Positions 4,952 through 8,896 of a DNA stretch of 64,000 bases are shown here, in pieces. How positions within the stretch are numbered: position 1 is the first letter of the stretch; each line of letters begins with the position of its first letter. The DNA is from an uncultured Pseudobdellovibrionaceae bacterium (lineage in GTDB: Bacteria > Bdellovibrionota_B > Oligoflexia > Oligoflexales > Bog-1112): positions 382,993-446,992 of the forward strand of contig CAZSXR010000001.1 of the NCBI GenBank assembly GCA_964611335.1, read 5' to 3'. The notes below the pieces were generated by a model. The model saw only the letters and a program-made list of their open reading frames with translations. It searched no databases and was not told where the DNA came from. Both the position numbers and the translations under genes were made by a program.

Positions 4952-7900
4952 TTGCAAACATTAAAACCAAACTTAAAGTCCGTCCCCTATGTTGAGAGAT
5001 CTTACGAGACACTCCAAGATCTTTTCTCTTATTGTGCCAATTGTTTCTCCAAGCAAACAGCTTTGGAGTTCGAAGGAGAAAAGCTGAGCTATGCTCAACT
5101 TGATGCTCTTGCAAATCGTTTTGCACATTACTTGCAATCCCGAGGTGTAAGCCATGGAGACTTCATAGTGCTTTATATGCCTCGTGGAATCGACATGTTC
5201 ATAGGAATGCTTGGTATTTTAAAAGCAGGAGCGGTTTACGTTCCAATGGATCCTCATTCTCCGCTTGAACGTGTTACTTACGTCTACAAAGACTGTCAGG
5301 CTAAGTTCATAGTCACAACGACAACGCAAATGAAGCCAGATTTTTCTCTTGCTTGTTTATTTCTGGATCAGATTCGTGAGGATTTCGACCGCGTACAGAC
5401 TCTAACAAAAATTATCGATAATACCCCTAGTTCTGGAGAAGATCTTGCCTATGTAATTTATACTTCCGGCTCCACAGGACAACCCAAAGGAGTAATGATA
5501 CGTCACAATAGTATAGTCCATTTCATACAATCCGAAAGTTCCATCCTAGGTGTGCGGAGCAACGATATTGTTTTACAAGGCTTCTCTCTTTCTTTTGACA
5601 TGTCCCTCGAAGAGATTTGGACCTCATTTTACGCAGGAGCAAAACTTGTCATTGCAAGTCACGAACTGATGACCAGTGGTCCTGACCTAGCTTCTGCACT
5701 AAATAAAATGGGTATTACAGTATGGCATTGTGTCCCTACTTTACTTTCCATGCAGCAAGAAGATATTCCTAGTTTAAGATTACTCAACCTTGGAGGAGAA
5801 GCCTGTCCTGCAAATTTGGTAGACCGTTGGTATAGAAAAAATAGACGTCTCGTAAACACCTATGGTCCTACAGAAACAACAGTCACCGCAACCTATGCAG
5901 AATTGTTTCCAAACAAAGCTATTACTATAGGTAAAGCTTTACCTGGTTATGAGACCTACGTCGTTGATGAAAATCTTATGCCTGTTCGAGATGGGACGGA
6001 AGGTGAACTTTGCATCAGTGGGCCAGGGCTTGCTGCGGGTTATATAAACCGTGCCGATCTCACATCTGAAAAATTTACTCTTGCTCCGTTCAATAGAGCC
6101 GACGGTACTGCTATTTTCTTTTACAGAACCGGAGATCTCGTTCGCATGAACGTAGATCAAGATATTGAATTCCTCGGACGTTTTGACACGCAAATTAAAA
6201 TACGAGGATTTCGTGTCGAACTTTCTGAAATTGAATCTGTTCTTATGCAAGTTCCTGGAGTACAAACGGCCATTGTATCTATGCTCAAAGATAAACACGG
6301 ATTCGATGCGCTTGTAGCGTTCATTATTGCAAAAGGTGACTTTCAAGAAGCGCAAGCATGGCATCAGATGCGTTCTAAGCTTCAACCGTACATGATTCCC
6401 ACTTTGTTGGAAGTGGTTCCTGACTTGGAAAGATTGCCAAGTGGAAAAGTGGATAGAAAAAAATTGAAATTTCCAGAGAAAGCAAGTCTTGCGCAAAAGA
6501 CTTTGAAAAATCCAAGTACAACGATGGAAAAGACCATTCACAAAGTGTGGTCGGAACTCTTTGCGCCTGTTCCTGTTTCTGTTGATGATGATTTCTTTCT
6601 TGATTTGGGGGGACACTCCTTAAAAGCTGCTTTGATGATTTCAAAGCTTCGAAAAGAAGAAGGTCTTTCTTCTATTTCTATACAATCTGTTTACAAAAAT
6701 CGAAGCATAGCGAGTCTTGCTGAATTTCTAACGGAGAAAGAAAAAGAGTACTCTGCAAGTGATTCTTCCAAATTGAAATTTAAAGAAGTGCCAAAACTAC
6801 GTTACGCTAAATGTGTAAGCGCACAAGCGGTGAGCCTATTTTTTCTTTTCGGAATTTTAGCTTTGCAATGGTTCCTGCCTTATCTTGCTTATAATTTTGC
6901 TTTAGTAAAAAATTATTCGATGCTTGGGTCTGTAGGATTTTCCTTTCTTGCCATTTCAGTCATGCTTCCTTTGAACTTTATTTTAGCCATACTTACAAAA
7001 AAACTTCTAATAGGTACCTACAAAGCAGGAGAATATCCTATTTGGGGATCTTATTATTTTCGTTGGTGGTTAGTTCGACGACTGCACTCTATGGTTCCTA
7101 CAGCGTTATTTCAGGGAACTCCGCTCTTGAATTTCTATTATAGAATGCTTGGTGCCAAAATTGGCAAAGATGTCTTCTTGAATTCTGCAAATTGCGATAC
7201 GTGGGATATGATTTCTATCGGTGATGGTTCTGTTATTTCAGAAGGTGTGACCTTCAGTTGCAGTTCTGTCGAAGCAGGAATTTTGAAAATCGGCCCTATT
7301 ACTATAGGAGAACGTTGTTACGTTGGAAACAACTCTGTTTTAGGTATGAATACGAAGATGGAAGATACTTCGCAAATCGAAGAGCTTTCTCTTCTTTCCA
7401 ATAACAAAACCATTCCTGCACAGGAAGTGTGGTCTGGATCACCTGCTCGAAAAACAGCTCGTGTTGAAAAAATTCCTGCAAAAAACGCAAACCATATGCC
7501 TTGGCCTCTCGTTGTTGCTCAAGTGTTGATGGTGATGACGCTTCCCCTCTTCGCCTTAGGTCCAGTATTGCCAGGAATTCTCTTTGTTTTACATAAAAAT
7601 ACAGACATCAGTCTTTTAAGCTTCTGGGTACACACTCCCTGGCTTGCTCTGTCTTACATTGTTTTCAGTTGTCTTTTGATTGTTGCATGCAAATGGATCA
7701 TACTGGGTCGGCTGAAAGCTGAAAATATCTCCCTAGCAAGTTTTAAATATCTTCGCTTTTGGTTTGTTGGACATTTGATGGAGTTGAGTCTTGCAAGTGT
7801 AAGACCTATTTATGCAACACTCTACTTAGCTCCTTGGTTCCGTATGCTCGGAGTAAAGCTGGGTAAACGTGCAGAAGTTTCCACAGCTTCCGGTGTAACA

Positions 7901-8896
7901 TGGGATCTGTTGAGCATTGCGGATGAATCTTTCGTCGCAGATGGTGTGACTCTAGGTGTTCCTCGAATTTATAATGGTGAAGTGCAGTTAAAAGAAACAA
8001 GTATTGGAAACAGAACATTCTTAGGAAATAGTGCACTCGTTCCTGCGGGTACTCAACTTGCAGACAATATGCTTGTAGGCTGTTTGTCGACACCTCCTCG
8101 TGAACGTGAGCAACAGGCTCAATCTTTCGCTTCGTGGTTTGGATCTCCTGCGATTTACTTACCACAAAGACAGATCTTCAATGAATTCGATGACTCCACA
8201 ACTTTTTATCCACCGAAAAAACTATATGCACTGCGTCTTTTAATAGAAGGTGTGCGCATACTTTTACCGATGAACTTTGCATTGATTTTCGGTTCTGCTG
8301 TGATCGCAAGTTTCTTTAGTCTTTATAATAGCGGCATAGGCAATGCAGCTATTATAAGTATCCTGCCATTCTTATACTTAGGATATGGACTTGCTTCCTT
8401 GTTTGTAACCGTTTTGATCAAAGAATTGTTGATGGGAACCTACACACCGACGGTTCAACCTTTGTGGAGCCACTTTGTCTGGCGCAGCGAGTTGGTTACA
8501 ACATTGTATGAAAATTTACCTGTGCCTGCTTTGATGGATCACCTACGAGGAACTCCATTCATCAATATGTGTTTGAGGATCATGGGTTCCAAAGTTGGAA
8601 AACGTGTGTACACCGATACTACAGACATTACGGAACATGATGTTGTCGAAATCGGAGATGATGCAGCTCTGAATGACAATTGTGGATTGCAAACCCACTT
8701 GTTTGAAGAACGCATTATGAAAGTTTCCAAAGTCACCATCGGAGAACGTTGTACAGTCGGTGCAGTTGCAATCGTGCTTTATGATGCAGTGATGGAAGCA
8801 GACTCTCAGTTAGGTGACTTATCAATGCTGATGAAGGGTGAAACCCTTCCTGCGCAAACAGAATGGGAAGGCTTGCCTGCACAACGTGTTCGTTGA
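4952..8896 (+). CDS. Pls/PosA-family single-module NRPS (A-T didomain followed by three LbH/acyltransferase-like segments alternating with TM helices); predicted homopoly(amino acid) synthetase
   Basis: A-domain cores YVIYTSGSTGQPKG, NTYGPTE, YRTGD, GRFDTQIKIRGFRVEL, PSGKVDRKKL. T-domain FFLDLGGHSLKA. Three hexapeptide-like blocks follow (GAKIGKDVFL.., GVKLGKRAEV.., GSKVGKRVYT..), separated by paired hydrophobic helices. Length is 1314 aa. TTG start with GGGAG 6 nt upstream. Confidence 0.85.
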   Translation: MQTLKPNLKSVPYVERSYETLQDLFSYCANCFSKQTALEFEGEKLSYAQLDALANRFAHYLQSRGVSHGDFIVLYMPRGIDMFIGMLGILKAGAVYVPMDPHSPLERVTYVYKDCQAKFIVTTTTQMKPDFSLACLFLDQIREDFDRVQTLTKIIDNTPSSGEDLAYVIYTSGSTGQPKGVMIRHNSIVHFIQSESSILGVRSNDIVLQGFSLSFDMSLEEIWTSFYAGAKLVIASHELMTSGPDLASALNKMGITVWHCVPTLLSMQQEDIPSLRLLNLGGEACPANLVDRWYRKNRRLVNTYGPTETTVTATYAELFPNKAITIGKALPGYETYVVDENLMPVRDGTEGELCISGPGLAAGYINRADLTSEKFTLAPFNRADGTAIFFYRTGDLVRMNVDQDIEFLGRFDTQIKIRGFRVELSEIESVLMQVPGVQTAIVSMLKDKHGFDALVAFIIAKGDFQEAQAWHQMRSKLQPYMIPTLLEVVPDLERLPSGKVDRKKLKFPEKASLAQKTLKNPSTTMEKTIHKVWSELFAPVPVSVDDDFFLDLGGHSLKAALMISKLRKEEGLSSISIQSVYKNRSIASLAEFLTEKEKEYSASDSSKLKFKEVPKLRYAKCVSAQAVSLFFLFGILALQWFLPYLAYNFALVKNYSMLGSVGFSFLAISVMLPLNFILAILTKKLLIGTYKAGEYPIWGSYYFRWWLVRRLHSMVPTALFQGTPLLNFYYRMLGAKIGKDVFLNSANCDTWDMISIGDGSVISEGVTFSCSSVEAGILKIGPITIGERCYVGNNSVLGMNTKMEDTSQIEELSLLSNNKTIPAQEVWSGSPARKTARVEKIPAKNANHMPWPLVVAQVLMVMTLPLFALGPVLPGILFVLHKNTDISLLSFWVHTPWLALSYIVFSCLLIVACKWIILGRLKAENISLASFKYLRFWFVGHLMELSLASVRPIYATLYLAPWFRMLGVKLGKRAEVSTASGVTWDLLSIADESFVADGVTLGVPRIYNGEVQLKETSIGNRTFLGNSALVPAGTQLADNMLVGCLSTPPREREQQAQSFASWFGSPAIYLPQRQIFNEFDDSTTFYPPKKLYALRLLIEGVRILLPMNFALIFGSAVIASFFSLYNSGIGNAAIISILPFLYLGYGLASLFVTVLIKELLMGTYTPTVQPLWSHFVWRSELVTTLYENLPVPALMDHLRGTPFINMCLRIMGSKVGKRVYTDTTDITEHDVVEIGDDAALNDNCGLQTHLFEERIMKVSKVTIGERCTVGAVAIVLYDAVMEADSQLGDLSMLMKGETLPAQTEWEGLPAQRVR

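What the first reader, a model, noticed from the sequence alone, without database searches (positions are those of the whole stretch)
4952..8896. Pls/PosA-type membrane NRPS: predicted synthetase for a cationic homopoly(amino acid), possibly a diamino-acid polymer
Seen directly. There is one A domain and one T domain (LGGHSL) and no canonical C or TE domain. Three hexapeptide-repeat (LbH-like) segments then alternate with pairs of TM helices. At 1314 aa this matches the architecture known for epsilon-poly-L-lysine synthetase Pls and related poly-Dab, poly-Dap and poly-Orn synthetases. I aligned the A domain by hand to GrsA-PheA and extracted the ten specificity residues as D-M-E-H-N-G-T-V-T-K. 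The Glu at position 239 is typical of codes for side-chain amines (Lys, Orn, Dab). From memory the string is closest to a published Dab code (DLEHNTTVSK), but I could not verify this. The gene uses a TTG start. It sits in an AT-rich accessory block next to secreted redox/ART genes, with no PPTase or obvious resistance gene adjacent.
Basis: partly seen in the sequence, partly recalled or inferred. Interest (0 to 1): 0.7.

Follow-up and report, generated by a model that had tools for sequence, protein, structure and literature searches.

The report
Membrane poly-ornithine-type peptide synthetase gene
This gene encodes an ordinary, intact member of the known Pls/PosA family of membrane enzymes that string one basic amino acid into a short cationic polymer. 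Its substrate pocket points to ornithine rather than diaminobutyrate.

Summary
Window 4952..8896 (+) is an intact 1314-aa ORF with a TTG start. It has one adenylation domain, one carrier domain (LGGHS556L) and no condensation or thioesterase domain.

The C-terminal 700 aa match NCBIfam TIGR02353 (Pls/PosA family) at 671.5 bits, above the 423.1 cutoff. This region holds six TM helices in three pairs and three mutually homologous left-handed beta-helix repeats. An AlphaFold2 model has pLDDT 90.8.

It is not closest to a Dab code. It matches the experimentally proven L-ornithine code of A. baumannii PosA (DMEHNGTVSK) at 9 of 10 positions. The poly-Dab synthetase code matches at only 5 of 10.

PosA is also the best solved-structure match for the pocket region. 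Overall, however, PosA is only 37% identical and falls outside the 120 nearest homologues, so the ornithine call rests on pocket residues alone.

The gene is not in an AT-rich accessory block. Its GC (0.413) equals the window mean. The order ExbD-ExbB-tRNA-Gly…NRPS-RRM-AhpC is conserved in relatives at 66-68% identity. Only the small genes between the tRNA and the NRPS vary.

The host is an Oligoflexia/Bdellovibrionota bacterium. Verdict: new member of a known kind, low interest.

The parts
4941..4945 (+). Shine-Dalgarno-like GGGAG, 6 nt before the TTG start
   Evidence: Read directly from the sequence
4952..8896 (+). Complete Pls/PosA-family synthetase gene: 1314 aa, TTG start, stop codon included
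   Evidence: ORF list and translation. An exact-match protein, P0001, is in the NCBI-derived collection. The N- and C-termini align with homologues.
5003..6466 (+). Adenylation domain (about aa 18-505). Motifs: A3 YTSGSTGQPKG at aa 170, A5 NTYGPTE at 302, A7 YRTGD at 391, A8 GRFDTQIKIRGFRVE at 409, A10 SGKVDR with Lys499. Code residues D216 M217 E220 H259 N279 G281 T303 V311 T312 K499.
   Evidence: TIGR01733 at 424.9 bits and PF00501/PF13193. Motif scan. Code extraction.
6536..6730 (+). Carrier (T/PCP) domain, aa 529-593. The phosphopantetheine attachment site is Ser556 in LGGHSL.
   Evidence: PF00550 at 32.7 bits against a cutoff of 20.8. Motif at aa 552.
6821..8881 (+). C-terminal polymerisation and membrane domain, aa 624-1310
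   Evidence: TIGR02353 at 671.5 bits against a cutoff of 423.1, covering profile positions 2-695 of 695. AF2 model pLDDT 90.8, pTM 0.90.
6806..7015 (+). TM hairpin 1 (aa ~619-647 and 656-688)
   Evidence: Kyte-Doolittle 19-aa window above 1.6. Long helices H16-53 and H58-87 in the model.
7154..7462 (+). Left-handed beta-helix repeat 1 (aa ~735-837)
   Evidence: PF00132 Hexapep at 31.9 bits. Short regular strands in the model. Foldseek hits to LbH acetyltransferases.
7496..7717 (+). TM hairpin 2 (aa ~849-881 and 893-922)
7847..8140 (+). Left-handed beta-helix repeat 2 (aa ~966-1063)
   Evidence: Internal repeat similarity. Model.
8237..8434 (+). TM hairpin 3 (aa ~1096-1125 and 1132-1161)
8588..8869 (+). 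Left-handed beta-helix repeat 3 (aa ~1213-1306). It carries the motif QTHLFEER (aa 1247-1254), which is invariant across the family.
   Evidence: QTHLFE[DE]R is identical in 121 of 121 aligned family members, PosA included, and is absent from repeats 1 and 2.

Best explanation
The gene encodes a functional single-module, membrane-embedded non-ribosomal peptide synthetase of the Pls/PosA family (cationic homo-poly-amino-acid synthetases).

Proposed mechanism:
- The N-terminal A domain adenylates a basic diamino acid, most probably L-ornithine.
- It loads the amino acid as a thioester onto the phosphopantetheine arm on Ser556 of the carrier domain.
- The C-terminal domain consists of three acyltransferase-like left-handed beta-helix repeats on a bundle of six TM helices. 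This domain lets the side-chain amine of a free monomer or of the growing free chain attack the thioester.
- Repeating this step builds a short isopeptide-linked polycation, expected to be delta-poly-L-ornithine, which is released at the membrane.

Shown here: the domain architecture, family membership, intact catalytic motifs, and pocket residues that are 9/10 identical to PosA.

Inferred: the substrate (about 0.6 for ornithine), the polymer linkage and length, the single active site around the invariant His1249 of repeat 3, and export. The iterative mechanism with an untethered chain is taken from published work on Pls and PosA. It was not tested here.
For: - TIGR02353 scores 671.5 bits against a curated cutoff of 423.1, full length. 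TIGR01733 scores 424.9 bits.
- The Pfam AMP-binding, AMP-binding_C, PP-binding and Hexapep domains are present, with no C or TE domain.
- A3, A5, A7, A8 and T motifs are intact.
- Six TM helices form three pairs. The three repeats are mutually similar, with E from 7e-9 to 1e-36.
- The AF2 model of aa 600-1314 has pLDDT 90.8 and pTM 0.90 and shows three units of TM hairpin plus beta-helix. Its nearest solved folds are LbH acetyl/acyltransferases. This is the same picture that the PosA paper modelled (PMC10522769).
- The code DMEHNGTVTK compares with the experimentally proven codes in PMC10522769 Suppl. Table 2 as follows: Orn DMEHNGTVSK 9/10, DAP 7/10, Lys 6/10, DAB 5/10, D-DAB 4/10, beta-Lys 4/10.
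- Met at code position 2 is the residue the paper identifies as setting side-chain length. Glu220 and Thr303 correspond to PosA Glu221 and Thr304. Thr312 replaces Ser313 but keeps the hydroxyl.
- In the pocket region (aa 195-330), PosA is the best match among all PDB chains: 139.5 bits, gapless, 53% identity. Pls scores 96 bits and every other A domain scores 53.5 bits or less.
- Close relatives P0006 and P0007 (66% and 59% identity) carry the exact PosA code, so Ser and Thr interchange within the clade.
- The gene stands alone between genes on the opposite strand, as posA does in A. baumannii.
Against: - Overall identity to PosA is only 37% (A domain 42%, C-terminal domain 36%). PosA is an outgroup to all 120 nearest homologues, and that set also includes many with a Lys-like code, DAESIGTV[IV]K. 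The ornithine call therefore rests on about ten residues, not on orthology.
- No member of this clade has been characterised.
- The S313A mutation in PosA costs about 180-fold in kcat/KM, so the Ser-to-Thr change at that position might shift specificity.
- PosA itself shows weak activity on Lys and Dab.
- No PPTase, exporter, peptidase or ornithine-supply gene lies nearby.
- Expression and product are untested.
Confidence: 0.75

Rival explanations
1. The family and mechanism are the same, but the monomer is a different cationic amino acid: L-lysine, Dab, Dap, or an uncharacterised one such as a modified ornithine or arginine. The product would then be a different polycation.
For: - The Orn call rests only on pocket residues.
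- PosA is phylogenetically outside the query's neighbourhood, which mixes Orn-like and Lys-like codes.
- Position 9 differs from PosA (Thr for Ser), and this residue contacts the side-chain amine.
- The DAP code shares 7/10 residues with the query.
- The paper shows that codes in this family can mislead: the Bdellovibrionales homologue preferred Arg.
Against: - Position 2 is Met, as in PosA. It is not Phe (all proven Dab/Dap enzymes), Ala (Lys) or Gly (beta-Lys).
- The M218A mutation in PosA is what improves Lys use.
- Ser and Thr alternate at position 9 among close relatives that are otherwise identical in code.
- The PosA authors themselves assign codes with Thr at position 9 (DMEHNGSVTK, DMENNGTVTK) to Orn.
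Confidence: 0.2
2. One reading: the enzyme makes a poly-diaminobutyrate (Dab) polymer.
For:
- PosA shows low activity with Dab.
Against: - The recalled code could not be found in the searchable literature.
- Both experimentally proven poly-Dab synthetase codes have Phe at position 2. DFECLSAVTK shares 5/10 and DFECLSCVSK shares 4/10 with the query.
- PosA (Orn) shares 9/10.
Confidence: 0.04
3. The enzyme is not a polymerase. The A-T pair would load one aminoacyl group, and the membrane LbH acyltransferase domain would transfer it once to an envelope acceptor (a lipid or glycan). This would be a housekeeping surface-charge modification, analogous in logic to DltA/DltC.
For: - The nearest solved folds are single-transfer acetyl/acyltransferases.
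- The gene sits in a conserved chromosomal order among housekeeping genes and has no biosynthetic cluster.
Against: - Every characterised protein with this architecture makes a free homopolymer: Pls, PosA, and the PDAP, PDAB and beta-Lys synthetases.
- TIGR02353 is matched over its full length, well above its cutoff.
- The invariant motifs are shared with PosA.
Confidence: 0.04
4. The gene is a decaying or silent relic with no product.
For: - It has a non-ATG start codon, a 648-bp upstream gap, and no promoter-like site upstream in the simple scan.
- The orthologue in L001 is split into three frames.
Against: - The reading frame is uninterrupted over 1314 codons and all catalytic motifs are intact.
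- Length and termini match the family.
- A good Shine-Dalgarno sequence is present.
- The sigma-70 scan is a weak tool for this phylum.
Confidence: 0.02

Closest known systems
PosA, delta-poly-L-ornithine synthetase of Acinetobacter baumannii (ATY43264.1; PDB 8G95-8G98; Patel & Gulick 2023, PMC10522769)
   Same: - A-T-[TM2-LbH]x3 architecture of about 1320 aa, encoded by a single stand-alone gene.
- Code DMEHNGTV(S/T)K identical at 9 of 10 positions, including Asp, Met, Glu and Thr at the positions that contact the substrate.
- PosA is the best PDB match for the pocket region, at 53% identity with no gaps.
- The QTHLFE[DE]R motif in repeat 3 is shared.
   Different: - Only 37% identical overall.
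- PosA lies outside the query's 120 nearest homologues, so the two are not orthologues.
- Ser313 of PosA, which contacts the delta-amine, is Thr312 here.
- The host is an Oligoflexia bacterium, not a gamma-proteobacterium.
- There are no biochemical data for this protein.
Pls, epsilon-poly-L-lysine synthetase of Streptomyces albulus (BAG68864.1; A domain PDB 7WEW)
   Same: - Same architecture and same family model (TIGR02353).
- It is the founding example of the iterative mechanism with an untethered chain.
- It is the second-best PDB match for the pocket region (96 bits, 47% identity).
   Different: The Pls code is DAESIGTVVK, which shares 6/10 with the query. Ala at position 2 deepens the pocket for lysine, whereas the query has Met there and His/Asn at positions 4 and 5.
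[quoted passage not shown]
   Same: Same family and architecture, with Asp and Glu at code positions 1 and 3.
   Different: The codes are DFEYVGTVTK (7/10), DFECLSAVTK (5/10) and DFECLSCVSK (4/10). All have Phe at position 2, which shortens the pocket. The query has Met.
Left-handed beta-helix acetyl/acyltransferases (maltose and galactoside O-acetyltransferases, LpxD, CysE)
   Same: These are the nearest solved folds for each soluble repeat (Foldseek E 2e-4 to 2e-3, target TM 0.5-0.58). They are trimeric, as is the pseudo-trimer formed here by three fused repeats.
   Different: They are soluble homotrimers that use acyl-CoA or acyl-ACP for a single transfer. Here the three repeats are fused in one chain, separated by TM hairpins and fed by an in-cis carrier domain. 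Only one repeat keeps the invariant His motif.

Membership tests
Pls/PosA family (cationic homo-poly-amino-acid synthetases; NCBIfam TIGR02353) | C-terminal domain of about 700 aa that matches TIGR02353 above the curated cutoff | tested here: met
   671.5 bits against a cutoff of 423.1, covering aa 624-1310 and profile positions 2-695 of 695
Pls/PosA family (cationic homo-poly-amino-acid synthetases; NCBIfam TIGR02353) | A single N-terminal adenylation domain followed by a single carrier domain with a Ser attachment site | tested here: met
   TIGR01733 at 424.9 bits; PF00501, PF13193 and PF00550; LGGHS556L
Pls/PosA family (cationic homo-poly-amino-acid synthetases; NCBIfam TIGR02353) | No canonical condensation or thioesterase domain | tested here: met
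   No PF00668 or PF00975 hit at E<=0.01 in the Pfam scan
Pls/PosA family (cationic homo-poly-amino-acid synthetases; NCBIfam TIGR02353) | Six TM helices in three pairs, separating three tandem homologous soluble domains (C1-C3) with a beta-helix fold | tested here: met
   Hydropathy and internal repeat BLAST. AF2 model pLDDT 90.8. LbH fold matches.
Pls/PosA family (cationic homo-poly-amino-acid synthetases; NCBIfam TIGR02353) | Asp at code position 1 and Glu at position 3, which bind the alpha-amine and the side-chain amine | tested here: met
   D216 and E220. The paper states that Glu is conserved in all CHPA synthetases.
Pls/PosA family (cationic homo-poly-amino-acid synthetases; NCBIfam TIGR02353) | Makes an isopeptide-linked homopolymer of a basic amino acid | not testable with these tools
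   This needs an enzyme assay and LC-MS.
PosA-type delta-poly-L-ornithine synthetase (functional subtype) | Specificity code DMEHNGTVSK | tested here: inconclusive
   9 of 10 positions are identical. Position 9 is Thr instead of Ser. Close relatives P0006 and P0007 have the exact code.
PosA-type delta-poly-L-ornithine synthetase (functional subtype) | Met at code position 2, the determinant of side-chain length | tested here: met
   M217 aligns with PosA M218 without gaps
PosA-type delta-poly-L-ornithine synthetase (functional subtype) | Orthology with A. baumannii PosA (same clade) | tested here: not met
   37% identity. PosA is equidistant from all code groups and is an outgroup to the 120 nearest homologues in NJ trees of both domains.
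PosA-type delta-poly-L-ornithine synthetase (functional subtype) | Kinetic preference for L-ornithine and production of 7-12-mers | not testable with these tools
   Biochemistry is required.
   The query has Met at position 2 and shares only 5/10 and 4/10 residues with the two proven poly-Dab codes.

The most novel reading that the evidence does not exclude
The Oligoflexia clade carrying DMEHNGTVTK could make a polycation other than delta-poly-ornithine. The Ser-to-Thr change at the amine-contacting position might select a different or modified basic monomer. Alternatively, the polymer could have a lineage-specific physiological role. The gene keeps a conserved chromosomal position across this group, whose named relatives include predatory bacteria, and has no cluster around it. 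That would fit a standing surface or anti-competitor polycation better than an occasional secondary metabolite.
Probability: 0.15. Interest if true: 0.45.

Novelty: new member of a known kind. Interest (0 to 1): 0.2.

Why it matters
Little is at stake. The family is already described and is annotated automatically, and more than 8000 relatives turned up in the protein search.

The useful outcome is a corrected, testable prediction: ornithine, not Dab. It applies to an uncharacterised clade from an under-studied phylum. Only a handful of these synthetases have a proven product, and none comes from Bdellovibrionota with this code.

Two smaller points may help people who work on the enzyme. First, a His-containing motif is invariant across the family and occurs in only one of the three beta-helix repeats. 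Second, the gene is inherited in a stable chromosomal position in this lineage.

Tried and rejected
The genome-contig scan returned only one relative, a 'Deltaproteobacteria' MAG at 66% identity. Taxonomy was instead inferred from Lon homologues.
- I looked for a conserved partner gene in relatives. The genes between tRNA-Gly and the NRPS differ in every genome and share no similarity. I rejected the idea of a multi-gene cluster.
- I searched for a PPTase using the fused PPTase domains of homologues P0087, P0110 and P0111. tblastn gave nothing better than E=0.048.
- I tested the ART label on the 549-aa neighbour. The N-terminal 300 aa gave no Pfam family at E<=10, and the only PDB hit was a chance-level one (E=0.49, a PTS IIB protein). 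Only FAD_binding_6 is supported.
- Literature searches for TIGR02353 and for the code strings DLEHNTTVSK, DMEHNGTVTK and DMEHNGTVSK found no paper.
- A search for a solved structure of the C-terminal domain found none in the literature or in the PDB.
- The promoter and terminator scan around the gene gave no more sites than shuffled sequence, and none upstream of the start.
- One paper search failed on a term-length rule.
- The PosA sequence I used came from a machine-read PDF and contains OCR gaps (1316 of 1332 aa). The key region was re-checked against the PDB sequence.

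
Full report
**1. Is the feature there?**

Yes. The ORF tool lists 4952..8896 (+), 1314 aa, starting at TTG. The translation is uninterrupted.

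The start is credible. GGGAG lies at 4941-4945, six bases upstream. There is no in-frame ATG before residue 76, which is already inside the adenylation domain. The N-terminus MQTLKPNLK lines up with the annotated N-termini of the closest homologues, P0002 (MKHLKHNLG) and P0004 (MQTTRQSLK). The C-terminus also ends where the homologues end.

**2. Domain architecture**

- NCBIfam gives TIGR02353, 'Pls/PosA family non-ribosomal peptide synthetase', at 671.5 bits against a curated cutoff of 423.1. It covers aa 624-1310 and profile positions 2-695 of 695.
- TIGR01733 (amino-acid adenylation domain) scores 424.9 bits over aa 46-442.
- Pfam gives AMP-binding (aa 29-364), AMP-binding_C (426-499), PP-binding (529-593) and Hexapep. 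It gives no condensation or thioesterase domain at E<=0.01.
- Core motifs A3, A5, A7 and A8 and the carrier motif LGGHSL (Ser556) are intact.
- A hydropathy scan finds six strongly hydrophobic helices in three pairs: about 619-647 and 656-688, 849-881 and 893-922, and 1096-1125 and 1132-1161.
- The three segments they delimit are homologous to each other, at 25-31% identity with E from 7e-9 to 1e-36.
- The flanks facing the soluble domains are rich in Lys and Arg (KLKFKEVPKLRYAK before TM1, TKKLLIGTYK after TM2). The loops inside each pair are short. This fits soluble domains on the cytoplasmic side and is read directly from the sequence.
- An AlphaFold2 model of aa 600-1314, built on 40 aligned family members, is confident: mean pLDDT 90.8, pTM 0.90. 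It repeats one unit three times: two long helices, a few short helices, then a run of short regular strands.
- Foldseek against the PDB returns left-handed beta-helix acetyl/acyltransferases as the nearest folds. These include maltose and galactoside O-acetyltransferases, LpxD, serine acetyltransferase and gamma-carbonic anhydrases, with E from 2e-4 to 2e-3 and target TM-scores of 0.5-0.58. No solved structure covers the whole domain.
- This is the same picture Patel and Gulick obtained when modelling PosA (PMC10522769).

**3. Specificity code**

I mapped the ten Stachelhaus positions from the conserved motifs and extracted them from a MAFFT alignment of the query, 119 homologues and PosA. The result is D216 M217 E220 H259 N279 G281 T303 V311 T312 K499, that is DMEHNGTVTK.

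The comparison set is Supplementary Table 2 of PMC10522769, which lists the experimentally proven codes of this enzyme family:

| Enzyme (substrate) | Code | Match to query |
|---|---|---|
| PosA (Orn) | DMEHNGTVSK | 9/10 |
| Poly-Dap synthetase | DFEYVGTVTK | 7/10 |
| Pls (Lys) | DAESIGTVVK | 6/10 |
| Poly-Dab synthetase | DFECLSAVTK | 5/10 |
| Poly-D-Dab synthetase | DFECLSCVSK | 4/10 |
| Poly-beta-Lys synthetase | DGESVSVVNK | 4/10 |

The paper's structures and mutants show several things:
- Asp217 holds the alpha-amine.
- Glu221, Thr304 and Ser313 hold the delta-amine.
- Met218 sets the usable side-chain length. The M218A mutation improves lysine use.

The query keeps Asp, Met, Glu and Thr. 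It replaces Ser313 with Thr, which retains the hydroxyl.

The same authors assign Orn to uncharacterised codes with Thr at that position (DMEHNGSVTK, DMENNGTVTK). Within the query's own clade, Ser and Thr alternate: P0006 and P0007, at 66% and 59% identity, carry the exact PosA code.

As an independent check, I searched the pocket region alone (aa 195-330) against all PDB sequences. PosA came first (8G95-8G98, 139.5 bits, gapless, 53% identity). Pls came second (7WEW, 96 bits, 47%). Every other adenylation domain scored 53.5 bits or less.

I could not find it in the paper library.

**4. Limits of the ornithine call**

Overall identity to PosA is 36.9%, or 42% in the A domain and 36% in the C-terminal domain. 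In neighbour-joining trees of either domain, PosA is an outgroup to all 120 nearest homologues. PosA is about equally distant from those with Orn-like codes (DMEHN, DMETN, DMESN) and those with Lys-like codes (DAESI).

The query is therefore not a PosA orthologue. The match is confined to the pocket, and no member of its clade has been characterised. S313A costs PosA about 180-fold in kcat/KM, so the residue that differs is not a neutral one. The paper also shows that a Bdellovibrionales homologue with an unfamiliar code preferred arginine.

I put ornithine at about 0.6, another basic monomer at about 0.2-0.25, and Dab specifically at about 0.04.

**5. Genomic setting**

The window is ordinary chromosome. 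It carries tig, clpX, lon, mutL, lpdA, sucB, pfk, fumC, der, rnc and a class-I tRNA synthetase. Lon's nearest named relatives, at 67-72% identity, are Oligoflexales, Bdellovibrionota, Oligoflexus and Pseudobacteriovorax. The host is therefore an Oligoflexia-type bacterium.

The NRPS gene has GC 0.413 and GC3 0.339. The window has GC 0.409, and the housekeeping genes have GC3 of 0.31-0.40. The gene is not AT-rich.

In relatives whose NRPS is 66% (L001) and 68% (L002, L003) identical, the gene order is the same: ExbD, ExbB, tRNA-Gly(GCC), a variable slot, NRPS, an RRM RNA-binding protein, and an AhpC/TSA redoxin. The slot after the tRNA holds unrelated genes in each genome:
- In the window, a 549-aa FAD-binding protein and a cytochrome-b5-like protein, with GC 0.35-0.37.
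- In L002, an HMA protein and a 237-aa protein.
- In L001, a 296-aa ORF.

These genes share no similarity with each other. In the window, one extra 177-aa ORF also sits between the NRPS and the RRM gene.

The NRPS is a vertically inherited, stand-alone gene flanked by genes on the opposite strand, much like posA, which is described as a single-gene operon.

No PPTase, exporter, degrading peptidase or ornithine-supply gene lies within the 64 kb. The holo-enzyme must be primed by a PPTase encoded elsewhere in the genome.

**6. How it most likely works**

*Shown here.* The protein has an intact A-T loading pair and a membrane domain built from three fused acyltransferase-like beta-helices.

*Taken from published work on Pls and PosA.* (The Pls part, Yamanaka et al. 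2008, is from my own knowledge; the PosA part is PMC10522769.) The amino acid is adenylated and loaded on the carrier. The side-chain amine of a free monomer, or of the free growing chain, then attacks the thioester. The polymer is therefore never tethered and grows by repeated transfers, giving isopeptide-linked chains of 7-12 residues in PosA.

*Inferred here.* Soluble beta-helix acyltransferases are homotrimers with active sites at subunit interfaces. In this protein the three 'subunits' are fused and have diverged. The motif QTHLFE[DE]R (aa 1247-1254) is identical in all 121 aligned proteins, PosA included, but exists only in repeat 3. Repeats 1 and 2 have SCSSVEAG and GVPRIYNG at the aligned position. 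That suggests one catalytic centre around His1249, with the other two repeats serving as scaffold and chain-binding surface. This is a hypothesis for mutagenesis, not a result.

**7. Comparison with known systems and novelty**

The protein meets every sequence-level criterion of the Pls/PosA family. It would be named as such by NCBI's own annotation rules. The protein search returned 8000 scored relatives, with the candidate limit reached, and 27 of the 121 sequences aligned carry the identical code.

It is a new, uncharacterised member of a known kind. The nearest characterised enzyme by pocket is PosA. By overall sequence, the query and its 120 nearest homologues, none known to be characterised, all stand equally far from PosA.

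Nothing in its anatomy departs from the family. Interest is low (0.2). The main added value is that the predicted monomer is corrected from Dab to ornithine and the gene is shown to be backbone rather than accessory.

Noticed in passing
window 1998-4303; L001 8582-9807; L002 6231-7846: A tRNA-Gly(GCC) gene sits between exbB and the NRPS in the window and in two relatives. Directly downstream of it, each genome carries different, unrelated genes. In the window these have low GC (0.35-0.37). It looks like a small tRNA-adjacent variable slot.
   Followed up: partly
window 2108-3757 (-): A 549-aa protein with an N-terminal signal-like sequence. Its C-terminal half matches FAD_binding_6, the ferredoxin-reductase type (aa 322-421). 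The N-terminal 300 aa match no Pfam family, and the only PDB hit is at chance level (E=0.49).
   Followed up: partly
window 3854-4303 (-): A 149-aa protein with a signal-like N-terminus, a cytochrome b5-like haem-binding domain (PF00173, E 6e-10) and a hydrophobic C-terminal tail. It lies next to the FAD-binding protein, so the two may form a secreted or membrane redox pair.
   Followed up: no
L001 10001-13855: The NRPS orthologue in the bog MAG (PLEQ01000361.1) is split across three reading frames near codons 213-311. This is either a pseudogene or an assembly error.
   Followed up: no
homologues P0087, P0110, P0111: Some distant family members (43-45% identical) carry a C-terminal extension of about 250 aa with a 4'-phosphopantetheinyl transferase domain (PF01648). 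These would be self-priming versions of the synthetase. P0087 and P0111 also have an N-terminal extension of about 113 aa.
   Followed up: partly
window 8690-8713 (aa 1247-1254 of the NRPS): QTHLFE[DE]R is invariant in 121 of 121 family members and occurs in only the third of the three beta-helix repeats. It is a candidate for the single catalytic site. I found no mention of it in the PosA paper sections I read.
   Followed up: partly
window 19621-20331 (+): A 236-aa ORF with an IS200-like Y1 transposase domain (PF01797, E 3e-10). It sits between rRNA/tRNA methyltransferase genes and a GNAT acetyltransferase gene.
   Followed up: no
window 11116-17354: A run of lineage-specific genes with little or no family assignment. 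It comprises a 514-aa lipoprotein-like protein, a 207-aa ankyrin-repeat protein with a signal-like N-terminus, a 703-aa orphan, a LuxR-type regulator and a 331-aa orphan. GC is 0.36-0.40. This stretch, rather than the NRPS, is the accessory-looking part of the window.
   Followed up: no
window 9801-10169 (+): A glycine-rich RRM-type RNA-binding protein. Its RRM domain is 90-95% identical in relatives whose NRPS is only 66-68% identical.
   Followed up: no
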